The notes under the pieces: model-generated | Seen by the model: the letters and a program-made list of their open reading frames with translations, nothing else | Databases searched by the model: none | Told to the model about the DNA's origin: nothing | Shown here: positions 1,316 through 30,815 of the stretch, piece after piece | Numbering within the stretch: position 1 is the stretch's first letter | Layout: the number at the start of each line of letters is the position of its first letter | UHGV virus genome: UHGV-0021747 | Source: a virus | DNA: 30,815 nucleotides | Strand: one strand, 5' to 3' | Position numbers and translations under genes: made by a program

Positions 1316-1410
1316 CGGATAGAATAAAACAGTGGCTAGGGTAGCTCCCGAAAAGCGGAATCGTCACCGCCAGCCACTGAATCTATGACGAACAACTAGA
1401 CGAGGTTGAT

Positions 1411-12741: not shown

Positions 12742-14130
12742 ATGGCTACTTGGCAAGGAACAAACGGCGGATTGTTGGCTGGTATCGGCGGCGTCAACTC
12801 AAACGCTCCAAGCGTAAATGACATCGGCAATACGCTTCAGCTTATCAGGCAGAACAATGATATTGAGCGTTCAGGCGCTAACAATGTTGGGCTGACTGCT
12901 TTGCAAGGCCTTTCAGGTATTGCAGGGGTGTTTCAGCAGGAAAAGCAGGCTCAGCGGCAGAAAGAATTTCAGCAGGCATACGCTAATGCTTATGCGTCTG
13001 GTGATCGCGGTGCTTTGCGCCAGTTGGCTACTCAATATCCAGACCAGATTGAATCCGTTCGTAAAGGCATGGGATTCATTGATGAAGATCAGCGTAATTC
13101 TATCGGCACCTTAGCGGCTGGCGCACGCCTTGCATCATCGTCTCCAGAAGCAATGCAATCATGGCTGCAAAACAACGCCAAGGAACTGACTCGCGTCGGT
13201 GTTGACCCTAACAGCGTTGCTCAGATGTATCAGCAGAATCCTTCAGGATTTGGTGAGTTTGTTGATCACCTTGGAATGGCTGCTCTTGGTCCGATTGATT
13301 ACTTCAATGTTCAGGACAAGATGGCAGGTCGTGAGATTGACCGAGGCAGGCTGGCAGAGACAATCCGCAGCAATCAGGCTGGAGAGGCGCTAACAGCACG
13401 AGGTCAGAACATCACGATGCGCGGTCAGGACTTATCTGCTTCTACTGCGCGACGAGGTCAGGATTTGGCTATGCAGCGAGCGTCAACAAGAGGAATCGCT
13501 GGGAATGATGAGCGTACAGTTCAGTTATCAGATGGCAGAACTGTAACGGTAGGCGGGAAGCTTCACGGAGCTGGGGCTAATGCGTTCTACGAAGGCATCG
13601 ACAACGAGGGGAATATGGTTCGCGTCCCTGCCAGTTCAATCGCTGCGCCTGCAACATCGTCTGCATCAGCACAAAACTATGCCATGAAGAAGGATATCGA
13701 CGCGATCGCAAATGCAGACGCTTCTGCTCTCGATTTCATGACAGGAATGACCGGCGGTGCAGGTAACCCGGCAATTGGTGCTGATGTTCGCAGCCGATTA
13801 ACAGGAAAAGAGCAGCGCCAGTTATATAACTCAGCACAACGTATTCAGGGCAGAATGCAGAATCAGGGTGTGGCGGCAGCAAGGGACATGGGTGCCAGTG
13901 GTATTAACACCGTTGCAGAAGCGAAGATGTATTTTCAGGGGATGCCGCAGGTTGACTATTCAAGCCCGGAGGCTATGCAGCAGTCGATTCGTGAGATTCA
14001 GGAATACACCAACAATTACAACCAACAATATAACGTTACTGTTGGTAAATCTCAGCGGCAGCAATCTCAACCTGCACAGGTATCACAGCCAGCAGCCAGC
14101 AGTAACTTTTCTTCACTATGGGGTGATTAA
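12742..14130 (+). CDS. Ejection protein, P22 gp20-like
   Basis: 462-aa ORF in the conserved position; composition typical of E-proteins. Confidence 0.75.
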
Positions 14131-16127
14131 TGGCTAAAGCATGGAAAGATGTTATCGCCTCTCCACAGTATCAGGCGTTAGCACCAGAACAAAAAGCGCA
14201 GGCTCAGGAGCAATACTTCAATGAAGTCGTGGCCCCGCAAGCCGGAGAAAATGCAGAGCAGGCTAAGCAAGCTTTCTATGCTGCCTATCCATTGCCATCT
14301 GTGCAGCAAGTGGAGACACAGCAACCAGTTGCACAGCAACAACCACAGCAAAGTGGATTTATGTCTGATCTTGGCGAAGCAGTAAAAGAGACTGGTCGCG
14401 GACTGGTGCAGGCTGGCGTGAACGTGGCAAACATACCTGCATCAGTTGCCGATGCTGTAACAAGCGCGGCGGCTTGGGCTGGCGGTAAACTCGGCATTGG
14501 CGATGGTACATATCAACCAGCGCCACGAGTAACAACGCAGGGATTAGAGCAGGACTTTGGCCTTCAGCAAGGCGCGCTGACTCCACAAACGACAGAGGGA
14601 AGGGTATTTGCTGAAGCATTGCCTTACCTCACTCCTGCTGGCGTTGAGAGAGCGGCAACACAGGCACCAACACTTGCTGGTCGAATTGCTCAGGGGGCAA
14701 CTCGCCTTCTAGCAGAAAACGCAGTTGGATCACTTGCTGCAAATAGTGCGAAAGATGATGCGGAAGCACTCGCTACCGATTTAGGTGTTGGAGTTCTGGC
14801 AGGCGGCGCTATTAACGCTGCTGGACGTGGATTAGGTGCTGCTTATCGTGGTGTTCGTGGTTCGATATCACCCGAAGCGCAACAGGCTATCAAGTTTGCA
14901 GAGCGTGAAGGCGTGCCTCTGCACACCACAGACCTGTTACAACCGACTTCCCGCATCGGTAAAATGGCGCAGACGACAGCGGAAAATATCCCTCTGGCTG
15001 GCACAAGCGGAATGAGAGCAACGCAACAGGAAGCGAGAAGCCAGTTGGTGCAGAGATTTGCTGATAAATTCGGTGAGTATGATCCAGCTGTTGTTATTGA
15101 CAGCCTTAAAGCGAAAACATCAGGAATTCGTCGTGCTGCAGGGAACCGTCTTGAGCAGGTTCAGAATGCAATGGCGGGAGTCAATATCCAGCCTGCTCGA
15201 GCAATTCAGCAGATTGATACAGAAATATCTAACCTGCAGAAGCTTGGTAAGGTCGCCGATAACGAGACTATTTCAAAACTTCAGTCCTATCGTGATGAGC
15301 TTGTTCGCAATGCTGGTCCTGATGGTCCGGTAAATCTGGATTTGAAGCAATTAAGCGACCTGCGCAGCCAGTTCAGAATGGACGTGAAGGGTGAGCGACC
15401 AGTGTTACCAAACCGTTCCGATGCTGCCATTCAGCGCGTTTACAAGGCGATGACAGACGATATCAATGGTGCCATTGGTCAGAATCTTGGCAACGATACT
15501 CTCCGTAAATATCAGCAGGCCAATGCCGTATACGCTGACGAAGCGGCGAAACTAAAGAATACCAGGCTGAAGAATGTTCTCATGAAAGGCGATCTGACGC
15601 CGGAAGTTGTCAACAACATGCTATTCAGCAAGAACAAATCGGAAATTAAGACTCTGTATAACTCAGTTGGTCGTGTTGGCAGGGCGCAAATGCGCAATGG
15701 CATCATTGGAAAGGCGATGGAGAAATCAGGTGGTTCCCCTGACCAGTTCCTTCGGCAGCTTAACATCCTGCAAAACCAGACTGGCATCACATTTAAAGGT
15801 CAGGAAGCCGCTTATCTGAAAGGATTGAAAAACTACCTGCAATCCACGCAGCAGGCTGCAAAAGCGGCAGTAACAACACCAACAGGGCAGCAAACCATCC
15901 CGTTCATTATCGGGTATGGGACGGCAATGAACCCGGCGACAACTGCCGCAGCGGTAAGCTACGGACTTCTTACTCGCGCCTATGAGAGCGAGCCATTCAG
16001 AAATGCAATGCTCCGAATGGCAAACACCCCACGCGGATCAACAGCGTTTGAGAAAGCCATGCAGCAGGCGCAAAAGGCCATTAACGCCCTGACTCAAGGT
16101 GCCAAGTCTGATGCGTTGTCAGAATAG
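14130..16127 (+). CDS. Ejection protein, P22 gp16-like
   Basis: 665-aa ORF in the conserved position, coupled to the upstream gene by an ATGA overlap. Confidence 0.75.
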   Translation: MAKAWKDVIASPQYQALAPEQKAQAQEQYFNEVVAPQAGENAEQAKQAFYAAYPLPSVQQVETQQPVAQQQPQQSGFMSDLGEAVKETGRGLVQAGVNVANIPASVADAVTSAAAWAGGKLGIGDGTYQPAPRVTTQGLEQDFGLQQGALTPQTTEGRVFAEALPYLTPAGVERAATQAPTLAGRIAQGATRLLAENAVGSLAANSAKDDAEALATDLGVGVLAGGAINAAGRGLGAAYRGVRGSISPEAQQAIKFAEREGVPLHTTDLLQPTSRIGKMAQTTAENIPLAGTSGMRATQQEARSQLVQRFADKFGEYDPAVVIDSLKAKTSGIRRAAGNRLEQVQNAMAGVNIQPARAIQQIDTEISNLQKLGKVADNETISKLQSYRDELVRNAGPDGPVNLDLKQLSDLRSQFRMDVKGERPVLPNRSDAAIQRVYKAMTDDINGAIGQNLGNDTLRKYQQANAVYADEAAKLKNTRLKNVLMKGDLTPEVVNNMLFSKNKSEIKTLYNSVGRVGRAQMRNGIIGKAMEKSGGSPDQFLRQLNILQNQTGITFKGQEAAYLKGLKNYLQSTQQAAKAAVTTPTGQQTIPFIIGYGTAMNPATTAAAVSYGLLTRAYESEPFRNAMLRMANTPRGSTAFEKAMQQAQKAINALTQGAKSDALSE

Positions 16128-16216: not shown

Positions 16217-16510
16217 TTAGCTGCTGTCTTTTTTATATAGCTCTTTGAGCGTATCAAAGACAATTTTCTTTACCATATCGGATTGTTGTTCTGCCATACG
16301 CTCTGCATCGTCAATGTAAACTGATGCAGAGCTTTGTTTAGTCAATGATTCTTCAATCGCTGCAATTATCTCTGAGTTCAGCGACCTGTTATTCATCTTC
16401 GCACGCTGTTTAATTTTCGCGTGAAGTTCATGCGGAAGTCTCAAGTGAAACTGCGCCTCGTCGTATTTGCTGTACATCCTTGATGCCTCACCAGTTGGGT
16501 GGAATGGCAT
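16217..16510 (-). CDS. mnt: Mnt-like ribbon-helix-helix repressor (likely start at the internal Met, 16477)
   Basis: C-terminal half ...RSLNSEIIAAIEESL...DDAERMAEQQSDMVKKIVFDTLKELYKK matches P22 Mnt closely as recalled; the N-terminal DNA-recognition strand differs. Confidence 0.8.
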   Translation of the reverse strand: MPFHPTGEASRMYSKYDEAQFHLRLPHELHAKIKQRAKMNNRSLNSEIIAAIEESLTKQSSASVYIDDAERMAEQQSDMVKKIVFDTLKELYKKDSS

Positions 16511-16550: not shown

Positions 16551-16573
16551 ATGCAATCACATCATGGTTGCAT
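16551..16573. promoter_or_regulatory. Inverted repeat ATGCAA-N11-TTGCAT between mnt and tailspike; candidate operator
   Basis: Seen directly in the sequence; sits in the divergent mnt/tailspike intergenic region. Confidence 0.3.
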
Positions 16574-16598
16574 CATATCATTCGTCTGGAGCAATGAA

Positions 16599-17090
16599 AT
16601 GTCAGATATCACCGCAAATGTTGTGGTAAGCATGCCTTCGCAACTCTTCACTATGGCTCGTTCTTTTAAAGCCGTAGCCAATGGCAAAATTTATATCGGT
16701 AAAATTGGCACTGACCCGGTAAATCCTGAAAACCAGATTCAGGTTTATGTGGAAAACGAAGACGGTTCTCACGTTCCTGTTGCACAGCCAATCATCATTA
16801 ACGCTGGCGGGTATCCTGTATATAACGGACAGATTGCCAAATTCGTAACTGTGCAAGGCCATTCTATGGCTGTATACGATGCGTACGGTTCTCAGCAGTT
16901 CTATTTTCCGAATGTGCTGAAGTATGACCCTGACCAGTTTGAGCAAAGGTTCATGGATGAAATTAGTTCGCCAGACGGTTACAAAATAATAGGTGGGTTA
17001 GAGGTCAGGCTTTCTGTATACGATATAGCTGCTGCTGATGGTGAAAGAAATAGCGATCAGTTGAATTCTTTTTTTGCTGAGTTTAAATGA
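16599..17090 (+). CDS. Tailspike N-terminal head-binding domain, ending at an in-frame TGA
   Basis: [11 protein letters not shown]...[34 protein letters not shown]...[15 protein letters not shown]...NVLKYDPDQ matches the P22 gp9 N-terminal domain as recalled. GGAG Shine-Dalgarno 8 nt upstream of the ATG. Confidence 0.85.
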
Positions 17091-17096
17091 ACTCCA

Positions 17097-18845
17097 GTGA
17101 AAATCTACTCAACTATGCCACTGACTTTCACTATCGACAAAGAGACAACGTTATACGGAGATTTTGATCTCAGCAATTGCACGTTCAACCTGGCTGGCGG
17201 TAAGATTGTTTATGCTGATGAGAGAGACGCATCTACATACATTAAAGATTTTACACCATCAGCATATCCATTAAACGAGCTAACTTCCGCGCTAACATTT
17301 ACAGAGTCAACCACTGGATGGGATAATTCCTTAGTTAAGATGTCTGGTACTGAAATTGACTTGTACCGATTGCTTGGCAGCACTTTCACGCCAAAATACA
17401 AAGGTGAAGTTAACCTACTAACCAAAGGAAGTGATTTAGCGTATACATTTAAGAATACATACAACTCTTCACTTATCTGTACTTTATATAAGCTGCCTGT
17501 GCGAAGGACTGTCATTGTATTGCCTAAGTTATCAGGGACGTTTACTGGCACGGCTGTTGATATCAAAAGGTCTATGGTTGATGTAAGGGTTAATTATGAT
17601 AATACCTTAGGAGCAATACCCATCAACTCTGCAATTTTTGGTAGTAGTAATACATACGGTGTTAATTGGTATTTGTGCTCATCGGGGATGACACAACCTG
17701 ATTCTGAATCTCGCTACACATTGACTCTAGAGTTTACTCTGAAGCATTCTTTTTTTAGCACTGTTGTTGGGAAAGGGTGGCGTTCTATTGATGGTAATTA
17801 TAGCCGTGACACTGTGGTAAGAGATTGCACTGTTGATAGCTTCAATCTTCATTATGGATCGTCTAAGGTTTTGATAGACAATTGCAGGATAATTAATGGC
17901 GCGGCTTTTGGTACTGGCGCTTTTGATGAATCAACGCAGATTATAAACTCAGATATTGGTCCCTTTGGGATTCGCACTGACTATGGAGAGCATAAGGGGG
18001 ATTTTATTGTCAAAGGGGGTTCGGTAAGAATATCATCGGACAAAACTGGGCTTGTAGATCTCTTCACATGCAGGTGTGATAATGTTGTTTCCACTGGTAG
18101 CCCTGTTCAGCCTAGAGCATTAAATCTGCCAAAAAATGTAATTATATCTACAAATATCTACTGGCCTGACGCAGTCACACTTAACATTGTTTCATTTAAA
18201 AATAATTTTAAGACACAAAATAGCATTATTCGTGATTTCATTATGCCTGGCGTTATAGATTTCTCCGGAAGCACCTTTAATGGTAAAAATGCAAGATTTG
18301 AGTGGGCCATCTCTTACCATGATTCAACTTCCAGAGAAATATCAATAGTCAATCTGACACCTGCGAAATCAATTGTTTGTAAGGTTTTAGCTTATATTGG
18401 ATACCTGAATGAGTATGCATCATGCCTTTATGGTCTTGAGAGCAATATGGACATAACTTTCATGAACTTTACGTCTGGAATGTCTCGCAGCTATATTAGG
18501 CTGGAAGGTGGGGTGCTGCGCAGGTTTGTTGGTTACTCCGGAGGGACAACCTATATGTTAGGAAGCGTGTATTTTGATAAGTCGTTGATAGATTGGGATT
18601 CAAGCAATAACCTAGTTTCAGGACTTATGTCGGTGTCTGATTGCCTTATAGACGGAACGAGGGCCAAAGGAACATCGTCCAGTAAGCCTGTTGTAAATAC
18701 ATTCGTGCACAGATCTGCAAATAATATTTGCCATGAAATTATTGCTACAGACTCAAGGGATGTGGTTGATAAGAAGTTCGCTTTATGCAGCAGGGAAGGT
18801 GCAGCAGGCAACTTCTCTACAGGAGAAATACCTATCTCTTACTAA
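17097..18845 (+). CDS. Putative tailspike receptor-binding (beta-helix-like) module, in frame with 16599..17090 across one TGA
   Basis: Same frame as the upstream ORF; no Shine-Dalgarno before GTG 17097 or ATG 17115. AT-rich, Ser/Thr/Asn/Gly/Ile-rich composition typical of tailspike beta-helix domains. Confidence 0.55.
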   Translation: MKIYSTMPLTFTIDKETTLYGDFDLSNCTFNLAGGKIVYADERDASTYIKDFTPSAYPLNELTSALTFTESTTGWDNSLVKMSGTEIDLYRLLGSTFTPKYKGEVNLLTKGSDLAYTFKNTYNSSLICTLYKLPVRRTVIVLPKLSGTFTGTAVDIKRSMVDVRVNYDNTLGAIPINSAIFGSSNTYGVNWYLCSSGMTQPDSESRYTLTLEFTLKHSFFSTVVGKGWRSIDGNYSRDTVVRDCTVDSFNLHYGSSKVLIDNCRIINGAAFGTGAFDESTQIINSDIGPFGIRTDYGEHKGDFIVKGGSVRISSDKTGLVDLFTCRCDNVVSTGSPVQPRALNLPKNVIISTNIYWPDAVTLNIVSFKNNFKTQNSIIRDFIMPGVIDFSGSTFNGKNARFEWAISYHDSTSREISIVNLTPAKSIVCKVLAYIGYLNEYASCLYGLESNMDITFMNFTSGMSRSYIRLEGGVLRRFVGYSGGTTYMLGSVYFDKSLIDWDSSNNLVSGLMSVSDCLIDGTRAKGTSSSKPVVNTFVHRSANNICHEIIATDSRDVVDKKFALCSREGAAGNFSTGEIPISY

Positions 18846-18880: not shown

Positions 18881-20029
18881 TTACTTTGAAAAGATCGCGG
18901 CAAATCTATGGGAAACCTCGATGCTTTTTCTGTCGATGAGCAAATAAAAGATGTAAGAACATGCATAAAGCATCACCACTGATATTAAAACAGCTGATAA
19001 ACATGCGCTGGAGTCGCTCATGATTTTCCTTGATTCATGATAAACTGGCCCTGATAAGCAATAAAATACAGGCATTTGAATCAAGTATGCCGAGAATGAT
19101 AACTTTCCTAAAAAGACCATGATTTTTGATTCAGAAAACCATGACATAACCCCAATCTTACATAGGGAATATACCACTCCAATTCCAGATAATAGATTGA
19201 AAAGCAAGTATACATTTATTTTCTCAATGCTGTGAATAGATAATGAAAATTCTTTTAACCATGCGTAAAGATAATGATTATATTTAAATCCAGCCAAGTA
19301 AAGTGATGCAATAAGAATTGCATATCCAATAACCTTATTCTTATATGAACCGCATAAACATATAGCCATACCAAAAAGGAATGATGCGTACCCATATGCA
19401 TTTTTATCATTAAAGTTAATTATGATTAAAACTGCGATTAAAGATAATATTAGCGGTGCTTTTTTAATAAAGATAGAAATAGGAGATATCAAAAAGACAA
19501 GGAGAGAACCATAAAACTCAACCTGCATAGTCCATGTAACCATATTTATTGATGAGTCACCTTTGAGTATGGAGCCATATAGTGAGTTTTTTAAAACTCC
19601 TATCACAGATAAATCACCATCTTTACCCAATGACCAAATCCACGGAACCCAATACTTATTGAAAGGGAAGTAATTTACAACAATTGCGCAAATAATAATC
19701 GATGCCGAAACTGGTATTAATAATCTTACATACCTTTCTAGCAGCATCTTTGCGGACTTCTTAGATATACAACCAGACCTGAAAATAACACTTGTAAGTA
19801 TATATCCGCTTAATACAAAGAATATATATACAGCTGAAGTTCCAGAGTAAGTGAAGCCTATTGGTAAATCTCTTGTCACCGCATCAAAAGAAGACTTAAT
19901 TATCTTTGTGTCTCCAGTATGCAGGTAAGGGAAAAAAATTATTGATAGATGAGAAAGCACTACCATCAAGCAGGCCAACCCCCTCACACCCTCTACCGAA
20001 AGAACCTTGCCACCATCAATCTTATTCAT
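18881..20029 (-). CDS. Acyltransferase family 3 integral membrane protein (putative O-antigen/surface polysaccharide acyltransferase)
   Basis: 382 aa from ATG at 20029 (the supplied ORF extends to TTG at 20050). Multi-pass hydrophobic profile and an N-terminal ...GVRGLACLMVVLSHL motif typical of acyltransferase-3. Strongly AT-rich. Confidence 0.8.
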   Translation of the reverse strand: MNKIDGGKVLSVEGVRGLACLMVVLSHLSIIFFPYLHTGDTKIIKSSFDAVTRDLPIGFTYSGTSAVYIFFVLSGYILTSVIFRSGCISKKSAKMLLERYVRLLIPVSASIIICAIVVNYFPFNKYWVPWIWSLGKDGDLSVIGVLKNSLYGSILKGDSSINMVTWTMQVEFYGSLLVFLISPISIFIKKAPLILSLIAVLIIINFNDKNAYGYASFLFGMAICLCGSYKNKVIGYAILIASLYLAGFKYNHYLYAWLKEFSLSIHSIEKINVYLLFNLLSGIGVVYSLCKIGVMSWFSESKIMVFLGKLSFSAYLIQMPVFYCLSGPVYHESRKIMSDSSACLSAVLISVVMLYACSYIFYLLIDRKSIEVSHRFAAIFSK

Positions 20030-20192
20030 ATAATTTCCGTATATGCACAAAGTTAGTGTGCATTAATAAAAGATAATACCCCTACTTGCATAACAGATAG
20101 CACGTGTAACTAAACGCTGAGCAATCAGAGGTTTCCGTAATTATCTGAGTTTATCACTCAAATCTCTATTGATCGACACCACCGATCGACAA

Positions 20193-20934: not shown

Positions 20935-22113
20935 ATGGCTATAAGCGACACAAAACTGCGTACTATTTATGGTAAACCATATTCGGGCCCACAAGAAGTG
21001 GCTGATGCCGATGGCCTCAGCGTACGAATTTCACCGAAGGGGGTCATCCAGTTCCAGTACCGCTATCGCTGGCATGGCAAGCCTAATCGACTTGGGCTTG
21101 GTCGATACCCATCCCTGTCTTTGAAGGATGCCAGACAGATCACTGCTGACTTGCGAAAGCTCTATTTCTCAGGAACGGATCCACGCACCTATTTTGAAGA
21201 GAAGGTGGAGAACTCCATGACGGTCGCCCAGTGTCTCGACTACTGGTTCGACAACTACGTCTCTACAACTCTCAGAGAAAAGACCCAGGCACTTTACCGA
21301 TCAACGGTTATGAAGCGCATGCATGACGCCTTTCCTAATCGTCCGGCATCTTCTATCACGGTTAAGCAATGGGTTGACCTGCTTACCGAAGAAGAAAGAG
21401 ATAATCCACGCCGAGCAAGGCAGGTGCTAAGTCAACTAAGATCAGCAATAAGTTGGTGCATGCGGCGTCAGTTGATAGATAGTTGCGCAATTATGAGCAT
21501 CCAACCAAGGGACTTCGGCTCCCGCGCTGAGGTAGGGGATCGGGTACTGTCGTATCACGAACTGGCTAAGATTTGGCTTGCTATTGAAAGAAGCCGTGCG
21601 TCTACGTCAAATAAGCTCCTTCATCAGATGCTTATGCTGTGGGGGGCGAGGCTCTCAGAGCTTAGGCTGGCAACAAAGACAGAATTTGACCTGCTGGACA
21701 ACGTATGGACCGTACCGAAAGAGCATAGCAAGATGGGTAATGTTATCCGCCGTCCAATCTTCGAACAAATTAAGCCTTTTCTCGAAAAGGCCATGACAAC
21801 GTACAATGATGTTCTTTTCCCTGGAGAAGACATAAACAAACCGATCAGCATCGCTGCAGCCAACCGATTCGTAAATAGAATAAGGGGAGGGATGGATCTG
21901 GGTTACTGGCGAACACATGATTTCAGAAGAACGCTTGTTACACGTCTGTCCGAGATGAATGTCGAGCCTCATGTTACTGAGCGAATGCTCGGTCATGAAC
22001 TTGGCGGGATAATGTCCGTATACAATAAACACGACTGGATAGAGGCTCAGCGCAAAGCGTATGAGCTTCACGCTGATAAATTGTTCTGGCACATCAGGAG
22101 CATTTCTGATTAA
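20935..22113 (+). CDS. int: Tyrosine integrase (P4-like, N-terminal arm-binding domain)
   Basis: N-terminus ...DGLSVRISPKGVIQFQYRYRWHGKPNRLGLGRYPSLSLKDAR is the arm-type DNA-binding domain signature; C-terminus has HDFRRT...LGH...VYNKHDW catalytic motifs. Confidence 0.9.
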   Translation: MAISDTKLRTIYGKPYSGPQEVADADGLSVRISPKGVIQFQYRYRWHGKPNRLGLGRYPSLSLKDARQITADLRKLYFSGTDPRTYFEEKVENSMTVAQCLDYWFDNYVSTTLREKTQALYRSTVMKRMHDAFPNRPASSITVKQWVDLLTEEERDNPRRARQVLSQLRSAISWCMRRQLIDSCAIMSIQPRDFGSRAEVGDRVLSYHELAKIWLAIERSRASTSNKLLHQMLMLWGARLSELRLATKTEFDLLDNVWTVPKEHSKMGNVIRRPIFEQIKPFLEKAMTTYNDVLFPGEDINKPISIAAANRFVNRIRGGMDLGYWRTHDFRRTLVTRLSEMNVEPHVTERMLGHELGGIMSVYNKHDWIEAQRKAYELHADKLFWHIRSISD

Positions 22114-29000: not shown

Positions 29001-29327
29001 TCAAATAAGTGGTTTACTGCCTAATTTCATTTTCTGGCGACCAACACAAGTTACACCCATTTCACTGCGTGGCTTGCTGTACCATGTGCGCTGATTCTTG
29101 CGCTCAATACGTTGCAGGTTGCTTTCAATCTGTTCGTGGTATTCAGCCAGCACTGTAAGGTCTATCGGATTCAGTGCGCTTTCTACTCGTGATTTCGGTT
29201 TGCGATTCAGCGAGAGAATAGGGCGGTTAACTGGTTTTGCGCTTACCCCAACCAACAGGGGATTTGCTGCTTTCCATTGAGCCTGTTTCTCTGCGCGACG
29301 TTCGCGGCGGCGTGTTTGTGCATCCAT
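29001..29327 (-). CDS. N: Antitermination protein N (lambda-type)
   Basis: MDAQTRRRERRAEKQAQWKAANPLLVGVSAKPVNRPILSLNRKPKSRVESALNPIDLTVLAEYH.QIESNLQRIERKNQRTWYSKP reads as essentially lambda N. Start taken at the internal Met of the supplied ORF. Confidence 0.9.
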   Translation of the reverse strand: MDAQTRRRERRAEKQAQWKAANPLLVGVSAKPVNRPILSLNRKPKSRVESALNPIDLTVLAEYHEQIESNLQRIERKNQRTWYSKPRSEMGVTCVGRQKMKLGSKPLI

Positions 29328-29499
29328 CTGGATTCTCCTGTCAGTTAGCTTTGGTGGTGTGGTAGGTGGGAGACCCATTTCGACCTGCTTCGGCCGACTT
29401 CAATTCGGCAATAGTTCCGCAGGCCTCGCCGCTTTACGTGCGACATATTCCCATCCATGAACCCTTCACCACACCCCAAAGCCTTCTGCTTTGAATGCT

Positions 29500-29530
29500 G
29501 CCCTTCTTCAGGGCTTAATTTTTAAGAGCA
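29500..29530 (-). promoter_or_regulatory. nutL site: boxB GCCCTGAAGAAGGGC and boxA-like TGCTCTTAA
   Basis: Reverse complement of 29500..29514 is the lambda boxB hairpin exactly; boxA-like sequence at 29522..29530. Confidence 0.85.
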
Positions 29531-29574
29531 CCACCTTCATGGTGGTCAGTGCGTCCTGCTGATGGCTTAAAATA

Positions 29575-29654
29575 TACCTACAGGTAAAACATCTGTCTAT
29601 ACCTGTAGGTAAATATAATTGATGTGAGAGTTTACCTGCTTGAATTTTCAGGTA
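29575..29654. promoter_or_regulatory. OL/pL operator region: palindromes TACCTACAGGTA (29575..29586, 29600..29611) and split TACCTG-N10-CAGGTA (29633..29654)
   Basis: Repeated 12-bp palindromes upstream of the N leader, identical to sites upstream of cI. Confidence 0.55.
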
Positions 29655-29671
29655 ATTAATTTTTTGGATTG

Positions 29672-29697
29672 ATATAAAAAAGCCCGCTTTGCGGGCT
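29672..29697 (-). terminator. Rho-independent terminator ending the cI operon
   Basis: Hairpin agcccgc-aaa-gcgggct followed by uuuuuuaua on the minus strand. Confidence 0.6.
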
Positions 29698-29708
29698 GAA
29701 AGGAGATG

Positions 29709-30023
29709 TCAGAAGCTATTTGGATTGCTTGGCCATTGCGGCAATTTTGATTCTACTGGGGTGTGTTTGGGTTTGAGTCCGTTTAAGTAGTCAAGGCGCT
29801 CAATGGCGCATTTATACATAGCAATCTGCTCTGATGACATGTCGTCGTATGACATGCCTTTGAACTTTTTAATTATCGATTCTGCCTCATGTATAAGATG
29901 CTTCTTCCTCATGAGTTCAGCTGTATGCTTAGAGCTTACAGGAGATAACTTTGCCCATATGAAGCAGATGATTACAACAGCGACTACTATGCCGGGTATA
30001 AACATTTGCTGCTTTATCCTCAA
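29709..30023 (-). CDS. Small single-pass membrane protein (104 aa) translationally coupled to cI
   Basis: ATGA overlap with the cI stop. N-terminal hydrophobic helix IPGIVVAVVIICFIWAKL then a charged soluble domain. AT-rich; followed by the operon terminator. Confidence 0.6.
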   Translation of the reverse strand: MRIKQQMFIPGIVVAVVIICFIWAKLSPVSSKHTAELMRKKHLIHEAESIIKKFKGMSYDDMSSEQIAMYKCAIERLDYLNGLKPKHTPVESKLPQWPSNPNSF

Positions 30024-30706
30024 ACTTTTGGCAGATCGTCCTGGTCTACGTACCTGGTGTGTTTCACAATAGCTGAAACAAAATGCATTTTATCAACTTC
30101 TTCAACAGGAAGAGTGATTGGGCGGTGATCACTGTTTATGCTACTAAACTGATAATCACCGTCTCTTGTTTTGTTCATGATCTTTATCATGTTGTGACCG
30201 TCTTTGGTCCTTACAAAGACTTCATCACCTGGATGTACTGGCGTATTTGGTTCAATAACAACATATTCTCCTGACTGAATCCTTGGCCACATGCTGTCAC
30301 CCTTAACCTTCAGACCGTAAGCATCTTTATCGCCGCTGTAGATGCTTAACCAACCGGATCTGAATTCAATCATATCCACTGAGCCATCAACTCCCAAAAC
30401 GGCTTCACCAATTACCGGAACAAAACCCGCACGAACGTTACCCGCAAACTCAAGATGGTCCGTAGCTCCAGCTTTACCATCTGCAAGCATGTCCATCCAT
30501 CCGCGTGGGAGATTAAAAGATTTTTCAATTAGTTCCATCATATCGTCAGCAATGCGTTTTTTTCCGCTTTTTCCTTCCGGATACAGCATTCTGGAAACGT
30601 ATGATGGTTCCCTTTCTATTCGACGAGCCAACTCTGAGGCCTTTCCATTACAGAATCGGTCTCTTATCTCTATCAGCCTTAGTCGTCTTTGTTCGTATTT
30701 ATCCAT
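30020..30706 (-). CDS. cI: cI-type prophage repressor (N-terminal HTH plus S24 LexA-like autopeptidase domain)
   Basis: Ala-Gly cleavage-site candidate (GKAGAT), GDSMWP catalytic Ser motif and a downstream Lys (MIKIM); 228 aa. Confidence 0.9.
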   Translation of the reverse strand: MDKYEQRRLRLIEIRDRFCNGKASELARRIEREPSYVSRMLYPEGKSGKKRIADDMMELIEKSFNLPRGWMDMLADGKAGATDHLEFAGNVRAGFVPVIGEAVLGVDGSVDMIEFRSGWLSIYSGDKDAYGLKVKGDSMWPRIQSGEYVVIEPNTPVHPGDEVFVRTKDGHNMIKIMNKTRDGDYQFSSINSDHRPITLPVEEVDKMHFVSAIVKHTRYVDQDDLPKV

Positions 30707-30726
30707 GATTTAATTCTATCTTTGAT

Positions 30727-30778
30727 TACCTGCCGGTAAATAACCTATGGGTATTGATTTGCTTTTTACCTACAGGTA
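30727..30778. promoter_or_regulatory. OR operators: TACCTGCCGGTA (30727..30738) and TACCTACAGGTA (30767..30778) between cI and the cro start
   Basis: Same palindrome family as OL. GGAAGGAG Shine-Dalgarno at 30799..30806 points to a rightward cro-like gene starting just past the window. Confidence 0.5.
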
Positions 30779-30815
30779 AACTCATCTTATTCAACAACGG
30801 GAAGGAGATAGCAAA

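What the first reader, a model, noticed from the sequence alone, without database searches (positions are those of the whole stretch)
29709..30023. Small membrane protein translationally coupled to cI in the rex position: candidate lysogen-expressed exclusion or abortive-infection factor
The 104-aa ORF begins with an ATG that overlaps the cI stop (ATGA on the minus strand) and ends before the operon terminator at 29672..29697, so it should be made wherever cI is made, that is, in the lysogen. In lambda this slot holds rexA/rexB, and in other lambdoid phages it holds other exclusion genes. The protein has one N-terminal transmembrane helix and a charged C-terminal domain, and I do not recognise it as any described family. 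The gene is AT-rich compared with cI, which suggests acquired cargo.
Basis: partly seen in the sequence, partly recalled or inferred. Interest (0 to 1): 0.75.

Follow-up and report, generated by a model that had tools for sequence, protein, structure and literature searches.

The report
Uncharacterised prophage membrane protein after cI
A real 98-residue single-pass membrane protein gene sits directly behind a prophage's cI repressor gene, in a genome slot that related phages fill with proven anti-phage genes, so it is a good but untested candidate for a new phage-exclusion protein.

Summary
The start is the ATG at 30005 (98 aa), 14 nt after the cI stop. There is no ATGA overlap, and the gene is not AT-rich relative to cI. 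The terminator at 29674-29697 and the single N-terminal hydrophobic helix are confirmed.

The protein belongs to a small, unnamed family of Enterobacteriaceae phages (PHROG 10450). It has no Pfam, NCBIfam, PADLOC, PDB or specific fold match.

The family occurs in only two genomic positions:
- directly after an S24 cI repressor, as in this window, mEp043 and several metagenomic loci;
- in P22-like phages, downstream of Mnt and converging on ejection gene 16, which is the sieA slot.

In loci whose cI is 78-83% identical to this one, the same post-cI slot holds BstA, a proven abortive-infection protein, or other cargo.

The gene co-diverged with cI, since synonymous sites are saturated in both. 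Its protein changed 5-6 times faster than cI.

The best reading is a lysogen-expressed accessory protein of the inner membrane, predicted N-out/C-in with a cytoplasmic helical hairpin, that protects against superinfecting phages. That function is inferred from position only. It is a new candidate member of a known kind, and interest is moderate.

The parts
30713..30740 (-). PRM-like sigma-70 promoter (TTTACC-16-TAGAAT). Its -10 element ends 7 nt before the cI ATG, as expected for a leaderless cI transcript.
   Evidence: sequence. The function as PRM is inferred by analogy with lambda.
30726..30780 (.). OR-type operator palindromes (TTACCTGCCGGTAAA and TTACCTACAGGTAAA)
30020..30706 (-). cI-type repressor, 228 aa, with an S24 autopeptidase C-terminal domain
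   Evidence: Pfam Peptidase_S24 at 1.4e-17. PHROG 4 transcriptional repressor. Annotated as cI in mEp043.
30017..30021 (-). GAGGA Shine-Dalgarno for the small gene. It overlaps the cI stop codon (TGA, 30022-30020) and lies 11 nt before the ATG.
   Evidence: Sequence. Equivalent SD motifs occur in all relatives.
29709..30005 (-). The gene: 98-aa protein plus stop codon, member of PHROG 10450 (unknown function)
29946..30002 (-). Codons 2-20: the single N-terminal transmembrane helix (FIPGIVVAVVIICFIWAKL, mean Kyte-Doolittle 2.53)
   Evidence: The AF2 helix spans residues 5-47.
29712..29945 (-). Codons 21-98: the soluble domain, predicted cytoplasmic. It comprises a juxtamembrane helix, a loop, a second helix (58-76) and an ordered tail with invariant W91-P92. 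Other invariant residues are K34, I38, E40, A41, M56, C66, A67 and L71.
29674..29697 (-). Intrinsic terminator of the cI operon (AGCCCGC-AAA-GCGGGCT followed by TTTTTTA)
   Evidence: L004 has an equivalent terminator.
29571..29613 (-). PL-like promoter (TAGACA-17-TATATT, 29599-29571) overlapped by OL operator palindromes (29573-29588 and 29598-29613). It directs transcription away from the small gene, towards N.
29500..29514 (-). nutL boxB hairpin (GCCCTGAAGAAGGGC)
   Evidence: Sequence. The hairpin was flagged on the plus strand. Identification as boxB rests on knowledge of lambda.
29001..29327 (-). Lambda-type antiterminator N, the first gene of the PL operon. It marks the far edge of the cI-N variable interval.
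   Evidence: Pfam N36 at 2.1e-26. Annotated as a 327-nt N gene in L002.

Best explanation
Window 29709-30005 (minus strand) is a genuine accessory ('moron') gene and the second, last cistron of the prophage's PRM-cI operon. It should therefore be made wherever cI is made, that is, in the lysogen (inferred from operon structure).

It encodes a 98-aa single-pass inner-membrane protein. The protein begins directly with its transmembrane helix. By the positive-inside rule it exposes a helical-hairpin domain of about 75 aa, plus an ordered tail, to the cytoplasm (predicted).

It belongs to a small uncharacterised family confined to temperate Enterobacteriaceae phages. The family is found only as a trailing gene next to a maintenance repressor: after cI in lambdoid immunity regions, and after Mnt in the sieA slot of P22-like phages.

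The most likely function is protection of the lysogen against superinfecting phages, acting at the inner membrane. The leading mechanism is interference with genome entry, by binding the cytoplasmic face of a phage DNA-delivery conduit or of a host inner-membrane protein that incoming phages need.

Shown here: the gene is real, its operon architecture, its family, its two slots, and its rapid protein divergence. Inferred: lysogen expression, topology, and the anti-phage function and mechanism.
For: **The gene is real**
- Relatives at 30-43% identity share the N-terminal TM helix and the conserved motifs S..H, LI.EA.S, W.EM, Y.CA.ERL and WP.
- Pairwise omega is 0.10-0.24.
- All 11 of 11 alleles are intact, and the annotated frame has more silent polymorphisms than the wrong frames (7 against 1 and 4).

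**Operon structure**
- The gap after cI is 14 nt, the SD overlaps the cI stop, and the only terminator lies after the gene.
- Gaps of 3-5 nt are conserved in L004, L005 and L042.

**Two slots beside a maintenance repressor**
- After cI: the window, mEp043, L004, L005, L042 and 27 IMG/VR loci.
- After Mnt and converging on gp16: N7, L008, L012 and L013. This matches the P22 sieA position.

**Defence hotspot**
- BstA occupies the same slot in L046 and L079. An RmrA-like peptidase plus DUF4411 pair occupies it in L074. Other small membrane proteins occupy it in L039, L040, L049 and L087.
- The cI-N interval is a known hotspot that holds rexAB and bstA (PMC8585504).
- The P22-like loci that carry the family lack the SieA motif.

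**Rapid change**
- Between the window and L004/L005, dN is 0.53-0.61 against 0.10 for cI, with pS saturated in both genes.
- Among close alleles, silent:replacement is 7:13 against 20:8 for cI.

**Topology**
- All 16 correctly started members have 0 K/R before the TM helix. All 17 analysed have 1-6 K/R in the 15 residues after it.

**Fold**
- Two independent AF2 models agree, with pLDDT 80.4 and 88.7.
Against: - No phenotype, expression or localisation data exist for any member.
- The protein matches no PADLOC, Pfam or NCBIfam model. It has no informative structural neighbour.
- Position in a hotspot is suggestive only. Such slots also carry cargo that is not for defence.
- If the soluble domain is cytoplasmic, a block of injection from the periplasmic side, as with T4 Sp or Imm, is excluded. 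A DNA-entry mechanism then needs a target on the cytoplasmic face.
- The module occurs with both a lambda-like siphovirus (mEp043) and a P22-like podovirus (this window). The target is therefore not obviously tied to one virion type.
- Fast protein evolution could reflect relaxed constraint and not an arms race.
Confidence: 0.5

Rival explanations
1. It is an abortive-infection effector. The lysogen-expressed single-pass membrane protein oligomerises or is activated on infection. It then collapses membrane potential or otherwise kills the infected cell, working like RexB but as a single gene.
For: It occupies the slot of the two classic post-cI abortive-infection systems, rexAB and bstA. It is a small membrane protein with a conserved soluble domain that could act as a sensor.
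Against: - No sensor partner gene is conserved. It stands alone after cI, and alone after Mnt in L013.
- One TM helix with a non-conserved sequence is a poor channel candidate.
- There is no PADLOC match.
- In P22-like phages it replaces SieA, which blocks entry and is not an abortive-infection system (PMC10883804).
Confidence: 0.15
2. It stabilises lysogeny or modulates induction, as reported for 434 Hex. Co-expressed with the maintenance repressor, it would damp RecA-, antirepressor- or protease-dependent loss of repression and have no direct anti-phage role.
For: - It is always next to a maintenance repressor, cI or Mnt.
- It co-diverged with cI over a long period.
- All 27 loci with cI at least 97% identical retain it.
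- 434 Hex, in the same operon position, reduces RecA-mediated repressor cleavage (PMC3564112).
Against: - Close relatives of this cI at 78-85% identity do without it and carry unrelated cargo instead, so the repressor does not need it.
- It is linked to two unrelated repressor types, S24 cI and RHH Mnt.
- Membrane anchoring is unexplained under this model.
- Hex is described as a 158-aa ORF or 6-kDa soluble fragment, which is a different architecture.
Confidence: 0.12
3. It is a lysogenic-conversion factor unrelated to phage defence. As a small membrane protein it would modulate a host inner-membrane transporter, sensor kinase or protease, and so change host physiology or fitness.
For: - Small single-pass N-out/C-in proteins commonly regulate larger membrane proteins in E. 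coli (general knowledge).
- It is expected to be lysogen-expressed.
- Each allele is present in about 1% of complete E. coli genomes from varied hosts.
Against: - The family is restricted to two slots that otherwise hold anti-phage genes.
- The protein diverges 5-6 times faster than its neighbour cI. That is more typical of conflict genes than of regulators of conserved host proteins.
Confidence: 0.15
4. It is a spurious or decaying ORF. The cI-to-terminator spacer merely happens to be open, which would explain why PGAP leaves it unannotated in most RefSeq genomes.
For: - PGAP annotates nothing here in most of the 52 genomes.
- Among close alleles, replacement polymorphisms outnumber silent ones, 13 to 7.
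Against: - Homologues at 30-43% identity keep the same length, start, SD motif, TM helix and ten invariant residues, although synonymous sites are saturated.
- Every one of the 31 close copies is intact.
- PGAP does call the ORF in NZ_CP053079 as WP_000470488.1.
- AF2 gives confident, concordant models.
Confidence: 0.03

Closest known systems
P22 SieA (inner-membrane superinfection-exclusion protein; PMC10883804)
   Same: - Both are prophage-encoded inner-membrane proteins.
- The P22-type members of this family sit in exactly the sieA position, between gene 16 and gene 9, converging on gene 16 and downstream of mnt.
- SieA's conserved motif is also predicted to be cytoplasmic.
- Only 22 of 66 P22-like phages have sieA, so the slot is often filled by something else.
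   Different: - SieA is 162-200 aa with 3-4 TM segments and an FxRYPxEAxxFNK motif. This family is about 100 aa with 1 TM helix and lacks the motif.
- hhalign probability is 0.65%.
- The window copy is in the cI slot, not the sieA slot.
- Function is demonstrated for SieA and untested here.
BstA (prophage abortive-infection protein downstream of cI; PMC8585504)
   Same: - It occupies the same slot, immediately downstream of and co-oriented with a cI repressor of the same clade (L046 and L079).
- BstA in that position is reported to be highly expressed in lysogens.
   Different: - BstA is a soluble protein of about 305 aa with a DNA-binding-type N-terminal domain. It acts on phage DNA replication.
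- There is no sequence relationship, since the window protein gives no PADLOC hit.
Lambda RexA/RexB
   Same: It has the same genomic position between cI and the tImm-type terminator, OL and N, with co-transcription from PRM. RexB is an inner-membrane protein. (Established knowledge.)
   Different: Rex is a two-gene system, and RexB is a polytopic protein of about 144 aa (general knowledge). Here there is a single gene with one TM helix, and no PADLOC match.
Small membrane superinfection-exclusion proteins of other phages (HK97 gp15, T4 Imm and Sp)
   Same: They are small proteins with 1-2 TM helices that phages use to block genome entry by related phages (general knowledge; review PMC11436027 listed).
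   Different: - No sequence similarity was found. tblastn of 50,697 phage records finds only mEp043, N7 and HZ41.
- Those proteins sit at different genomic locations.
- T4 Sp and HK97 gp15 are thought to act on the periplasmic side, whereas this domain is predicted to be cytoplasmic.
Phage 434 Hex (PMC3564112)
   Same: It is the second cistron of a PRM-cI operon. It was named for heterologous exclusion of P22.
   Different: It is described as a 158-aa ORF that partly overlaps cI, or as a 6-kDa soluble fragment. No membrane segment is reported, and its role is in blocking RecA-stimulated repressor cleavage.

Membership tests
PHROG 10450 (unknown function) | Full-length match to the family profile | tested here: met
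   E 7.8e-55 over residues 1-98 against profile positions 1-98 of 98. All 17 aligned family members match.
SieA (P22 superinfection exclusion A) | Sequence or profile similarity to P22 SieA | tested here: not met
   hhalign probability 0.65%. Only a TM-to-TM alignment of 26 columns was produced.
SieA (P22 superinfection exclusion A) | Conserved FxRYPxEAxxFNK motif | tested here: not met
   A regex allowing 3 mismatches over six frames of the window and all loci fetched by then (L001-L015) finds it only in P22 itself.
SieA (P22 superinfection exclusion A) | Three or four transmembrane segments in a protein of about 160-200 aa | tested here: not met
   There is one hydrophobic segment in a protein of 97-114 aa. 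The next-best 19-aa window has a Kyte-Doolittle score of 0.46 or less.
SieA (P22 superinfection exclusion A) | Location between genes 16 and 9 of a P22-like prophage | tested here: inconclusive
   Met for the relatives in N7, L008, L012 and L013. Not met for the window copy, which follows cI. The window's own 16-9 interval holds only an Mnt-like ORF.
SieA (P22 superinfection exclusion A) | Blocks DNA injection by P22-like phages | not testable with these tools
   This needs efficiency-of-plating and K+ efflux assays.
BstA | Match to the PADLOC BstA model | tested here: not met
   The window protein has 0 PADLOC families. The occupants of the same slot in L046 and L079 score 7e-122 and 1e-117.
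RexAB | Two-gene system with a polytopic RexB and a cytoplasmic RexA | tested here: not met
   A single gene lies between cI and the terminator. It has one TM helix and no PADLOC hit.
Lysogen-expressed cI-operon accessory gene (functional class, not a homology family) | Co-oriented with and immediately downstream of cI, no intervening terminator, terminator after the gene, inside the OL-OR immunity region | tested here: met
   The arrangement is conserved in L004, L005 and L042.
Lysogen-expressed cI-operon accessory gene (functional class, not a homology family) | Transcript and protein present in the lysogen | not testable with these tools
   No expression data could be reached. No paper mentions WP_000470488.
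434 Hex | Sequence similarity to Hex | not tested
   The Hex sequence was not at hand. The published description (158-aa ORF, 6-kDa soluble fragment) differs in architecture.

The most novel reading that the evidence does not exclude
PHROG 10450 is a new single-gene family of inner-membrane anti-phage proteins. It can stand in positionally for both SieA, in the P22-type immI/ejection-gene slot, and for BstA or Rex, in the post-cI slot. Its fast-evolving cytoplasmic helical-hairpin domain would recognise the cytoplasmic end of incoming phages' DNA-delivery machinery, or a host inner-membrane entry factor. That would be a block on genome entry from the inside, distinct from known periplasm-facing exclusion proteins.
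Probability: 0.3. Interest if true: 0.6.

Novelty: new member of a known kind. Interest (0 to 1): 0.45.

Why it matters
Prophage genes expressed in lysogens determine which phages can infect a strain. That matters for phage therapy, for Shiga-toxin phage spread, and for understanding how defence evolves.

The cI-N interval and the P22 sieA locus are each already known to hold such genes. This family is unusual because it appears in both. It is a single tiny gene, so it is easy to test. Its two main alleles each sit in about 1% of complete E. coli genomes, and the N7-type allele also occurs in Salmonella. No database gives it a name or a defence annotation.

A positive phenotype would add a new, very small exclusion or defence protein. 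Escape mutants would then give a handle on what happens at the cytoplasmic face of the membrane during phage genome entry.

Tried and rejected
- **Family libraries.** Pfam, NCBIfam and PADLOC scans of the protein and of all 17 family members gave nothing above noise. Weak hits to PHROG 1077 'transcriptional regulator' (E 0.058; one member 3.7e-4) and to Pfam Aca2_YdiL (0.035) were judged to be helix-composition noise and were not pursued.
- **PDB sequence search with the family profile.** It returned only designed helical filaments at E above 1.
- **Two 1,300-aa HMMER hits (P0008, P0010).** These are tandem-repeat proteins whose scores sum weak repeats, and they were rejected.
- **Non-coding alternative.** Rfam finds nothing credible in 29300-30815. 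The svsR sRNA of prophage NC-SV lies inside the 3' end of a cI gene, not in a downstream ORF.
- **TTG start (104 aa).** Rejected in favour of the ATG.
- **AT-richness as a sign of cargo.** Rejected.
- **A shared three-gene cassette.** N7 ORF16 and ORF15 are not homologous to the pair after cI in L088 (E 0.12 and 11).
- **Literature.** No paper was found that treats the small gene of mEp043 or mentions WP_000470488.

Full report
**1. What is in the sequence**

An ORF on the minus strand ends at 29709, and its longest reading begins with a TTG at 30023. The junction reads CCA AAA GTT TGA GGA TAA AGC AGC AAA TG, so only a TTG overlaps the cI stop codon.

The real start is the ATG at 30005-30003, which gives 98 aa. 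Several results support this:
- PHROG 10450 has 98 positions and matches residues 7-104 of the long reading end to end, E 9.8e-55.
- Protein-database clusters are 98 aa long.
- All diverged full-length relatives begin M[YFW]I[PS] at this codon.
- Each locus has a GGAG/GAGG Shine-Dalgarno motif 6-11 nt upstream, and several have in-frame stops just upstream.
- In mEp043 and L005 the start codon is GTG. That explains why GenBank annotators of mEp043 chose the upstream TTG.

The GAGGA Shine-Dalgarno (30021-30017) overlaps the cI stop codon. Close coupling with cI is therefore plausible, but through proximity and not through overlapping codons.

Eleven nt after the stop codon lies the only minus-strand terminator in the region, with stem 29697-29681 and a T-run after it. 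Beyond it come the OL-type operator palindromes and a PL-like promoter, the nutL boxB hairpin, and a lambda-type N gene. Upstream of cI are the OR-type palindromes and a PRM-like promoter whose -10 element ends 7 nt before the cI ATG. The gene therefore lies inside the immunity region as the second cistron of the cI operon.

**2. Is it a real gene?**

NCBI's PGAP leaves the ORF unannotated in most of the 52 complete E. coli genomes that carry it. It does call the ORF once, as WP_000470488.1. The comparative evidence that it is coding is strong.

An exhaustive HMMER search of 1.84 billion representative proteins, followed by a profile search, found a small family of about 26 clusters. The members are 97-114 aa long, come only from Enterobacteriaceae and are all unnamed. 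They share:
- a hydrophobic helix from residue 1-3 onward;
- ten invariant positions (K34, I38, E40, A41, M56, C66, A67, L71, W91, P92).

Nei-Gojobori analysis gave these results:
- Against 96-97% identical alleles there are 7 synonymous and 3-5 nonsynonymous differences, so omega is 0.10-0.17.
- Against the relatives in L004 and L005, which are about 42-43% identical, synonymous sites are saturated (pS 0.72-0.86) while pN is 0.38-0.42.

Across 31 close copies there are 11 distinct DNA alleles, and all are intact. Silent polymorphisms number 7 in the annotated frame, against 1 and 4 in the two wrong frames.

**3. The protein**

- All 17 aligned members have one hydrophobic segment with a mean Kyte-Doolittle score of 1.65-2.64.
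- The 16 with the correct start have no K/R before that segment, and all 17 have 1-6 K/R in the 15 residues after it.
- The positive-inside rule therefore predicts an N-out/C-in topology, with the soluble domain in the cytoplasm.
- Two AlphaFold2 models built from the family alignment agree. The window protein gave pLDDT 80.4 and the P22-type member P0026 gave 88.7. Both show a long helix at about residues 5-47 (TM plus juxtamembrane), a short loop, a second helix at about 58-76 that packs back as a hairpin, and an ordered extended tail carrying the invariant WP.
- No library places the fold or the sequence in a known family.

**4. Where the family lives**

This is the most informative result. 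The intact phage and prophage loci examined show only two genomic contexts.

(a) Directly after an S24 cI repressor in lambdoid immunity regions:
- the window;
- phage mEp043, whose immunity region is 99.1% identical;
- L004, L005 and L042, with gaps of 3-5 nt after cI;
- all 27 IMG/VR loci that have cI at least 97% identical and enough downstream sequence.

(b) In P22-like phages, converging on ejection-protein gene 16 and usually downstream of an Mnt/Arc-type repressor:
- phage N7 and HZ41;
- L008, L012 and L013;
- a remnant next to gp7 and gp20 in L006.

Comparison with the annotated P22 genome shows that context (b) is exactly the sieA position. The family is not SieA. hhalign probability is 0.65%, the SieA motif is absent from every locus that carries the family, and the family has one TM helix where SieA has three or four (PMC10883804).

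The window's own phage is P22-like. It has a P22 portal, an Sf6-type needle, gp7 and gp20, and its 16-9 interval holds only an Mnt-like ORF. mEp043 is a lambda-like siphovirus. The cI plus small-gene module therefore moves between virion types.

**5. The slot is a defence hotspot in this cI clade**

I examined what lies downstream of 80 cI relatives.

| cI identity to the window | Locus | Occupant of the slot |
|---|---|---|
| 85% | L039, L040 | unrelated 133-aa protein with 1 TM helix |
| 78% / 83% | L046 / L079 | BstA (PADLOC E 7e-122 / 1e-117) |
| 65% | L074 | RmrA-like M78 peptidase + DUF4411 |
| 55% | L083 | ParA-like ATPase |
| 65% | L048 | ClpP/SDH-like protease |
| 65% / 77% | L049 / L087 | 61-aa / 52-aa proteins with 2 TM helices |

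BstA is an experimentally proven prophage abortive-infection protein. It is described as lying downstream of cI and being highly expressed in lysogens. The same paper notes that the cI-N interval is a known mosaic hotspot that holds rexAB in lambda (PMC8585504).

**6. Evolutionary tempo**

- cI in L004 and L005 is 84-85% identical to the window's cI, while the small protein is only about 42-43% identical.
- Synonymous sites are saturated in both genes. They therefore diverged together over a long period, and the pattern is not explained by a recent swap of the small gene.
- The small protein accumulated 5-6 times more replacements than cI, with dN 0.53-0.61 against 0.10.
- Among near-identical alleles, 10 of 11 DNA alleles encode distinct proteins, against 4 of 12 for cI.
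- This fits a conflict gene, but relaxed constraint would give the same pattern.

**7. Interpretation**

The evidence firmly supports a real accessory gene of the cI operon that encodes a single-pass membrane protein from an uncharacterised phage family. Lysogen expression and the N-out/C-in topology are well-grounded inferences.

An anti-phage function is inferred only from position, specifically from sharing slots with SieA, BstA and Rex, and from the rapid protein evolution.

I favour action at the inner membrane against incoming phages. Within that, I favour interference with genome entry from the cytoplasmic face. I hold the mechanism at roughly one in three.

The alternatives cannot be excluded without experiments. 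They are a single-gene abortive-infection effector, a Hex-like lysogeny stabiliser (PMC3564112), and a modulator of a host membrane protein.

**8. Novelty and score**

The concept of defence cargo behind cI is well established, so this is not a new kind of system. The family itself is unnamed everywhere:
- The exact window protein occurs on 481 contigs.
- The N7-type protein occurs on at least 999 contigs across E. coli and Salmonella, all labelled 'hypothetical' or 'Phage protein'.
- It is absent from PADLOC.
- It is found in only three of 50,697 sequenced phage records.

Its occupancy of both classic slots is a new observation and easy to test. I rate it a new member of a known kind, with moderate interest (0.45).

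Noticed in passing
window 16551-18845: The tailspike appears split. A 179-aa ORF carries the P22 head-binding domain (Pfam Head_binding, 3.8e-67). It is followed 6 nt later by a separate 582-aa ORF with a GTG start and no Pfam hit. This could be a frameshift or nonsense mutation, a sequencing error, or a genuine two-piece tailspike.
   Followed up: no
window 16217-16510 (-): A 97-aa ORF that looks like an Mnt/Arc-type ribbon-helix-helix protein converges on the gp16-sized gene. No arc, ant or sieA lies nearby, so it looks like an orphan remnant of the immI region. What it represses without ant is unclear. L013 has a similar Mnt-only arrangement followed by the family gene.
   Followed up: partly
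window 18881-20050 (-) and 20935-22113 (+): An Acyl_transf_3 acyltransferase lies next to the tailspike and before the integrase. Its position suggests an O-antigen-modifying lysogenic-conversion gene like Sf6 oac. The gene order (tailspike, acyltransferase, integrase, early-left genes) is that of a circular or vegetative phage map and not of an integrated prophage.
   Followed up: no
window 1329-1391 (+): Rfam int-alpA sRNA match (42 bits against a gathering score of 35.8, E 1.3e-5), at the left end of the window and upstream of the terminase genes.
   Followed up: no
window 14130-16127 (+): The 665-aa ORF in the gp16 (ejection protein) position has no Pfam hit at E up to 0.001. The gp16 homologues in L008, L012 and L013 match PF26808. 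It may be a divergent gp16 type.
   Followed up: no
L039 and L040, 3309-3710 (+): In loci whose cI is 85% identical to the window's, the post-cI slot holds a different, uncharacterised 133-aa protein with one TM helix near its N-terminus. It has no Pfam or PADLOC hit and is another candidate lysogen-expressed membrane protein.
   Followed up: partly
L046 3350-4267 and L079 3045-3965 (+); L074 3254-4881 (+): Related cI loci carry BstA (PADLOC 7e-122 and 1e-117), or an RmrA-like M78 peptidase plus DUF4411 pair, in the same slot. This documents that the cI clade's downstream site is a defence hotspot.
   Followed up: yes
L003 (phage N7) 3008-3848 (+): Between mnt and the family gene, N7 has two further unknown ORFs. 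One is a 116-aa protein with two CxxC pairs (zinc-ribbon-like). The other is a 170-aa protein with a central TM helix and a coiled-coil tail. L012 has two ORFs of similar size in the same place. They are not homologous to the pair after cI in L088.
   Followed up: partly
L009-L011 cI (residues 76-82 and the C-terminus): The 96-97% alleles differ from the window's cI mainly in the linker (DGKAGAT becomes DSKVGSA or DSKVGAA) and in the last residue (V becomes F). That last codon is the one overlapped by the upstream TTG.
   Followed up: no
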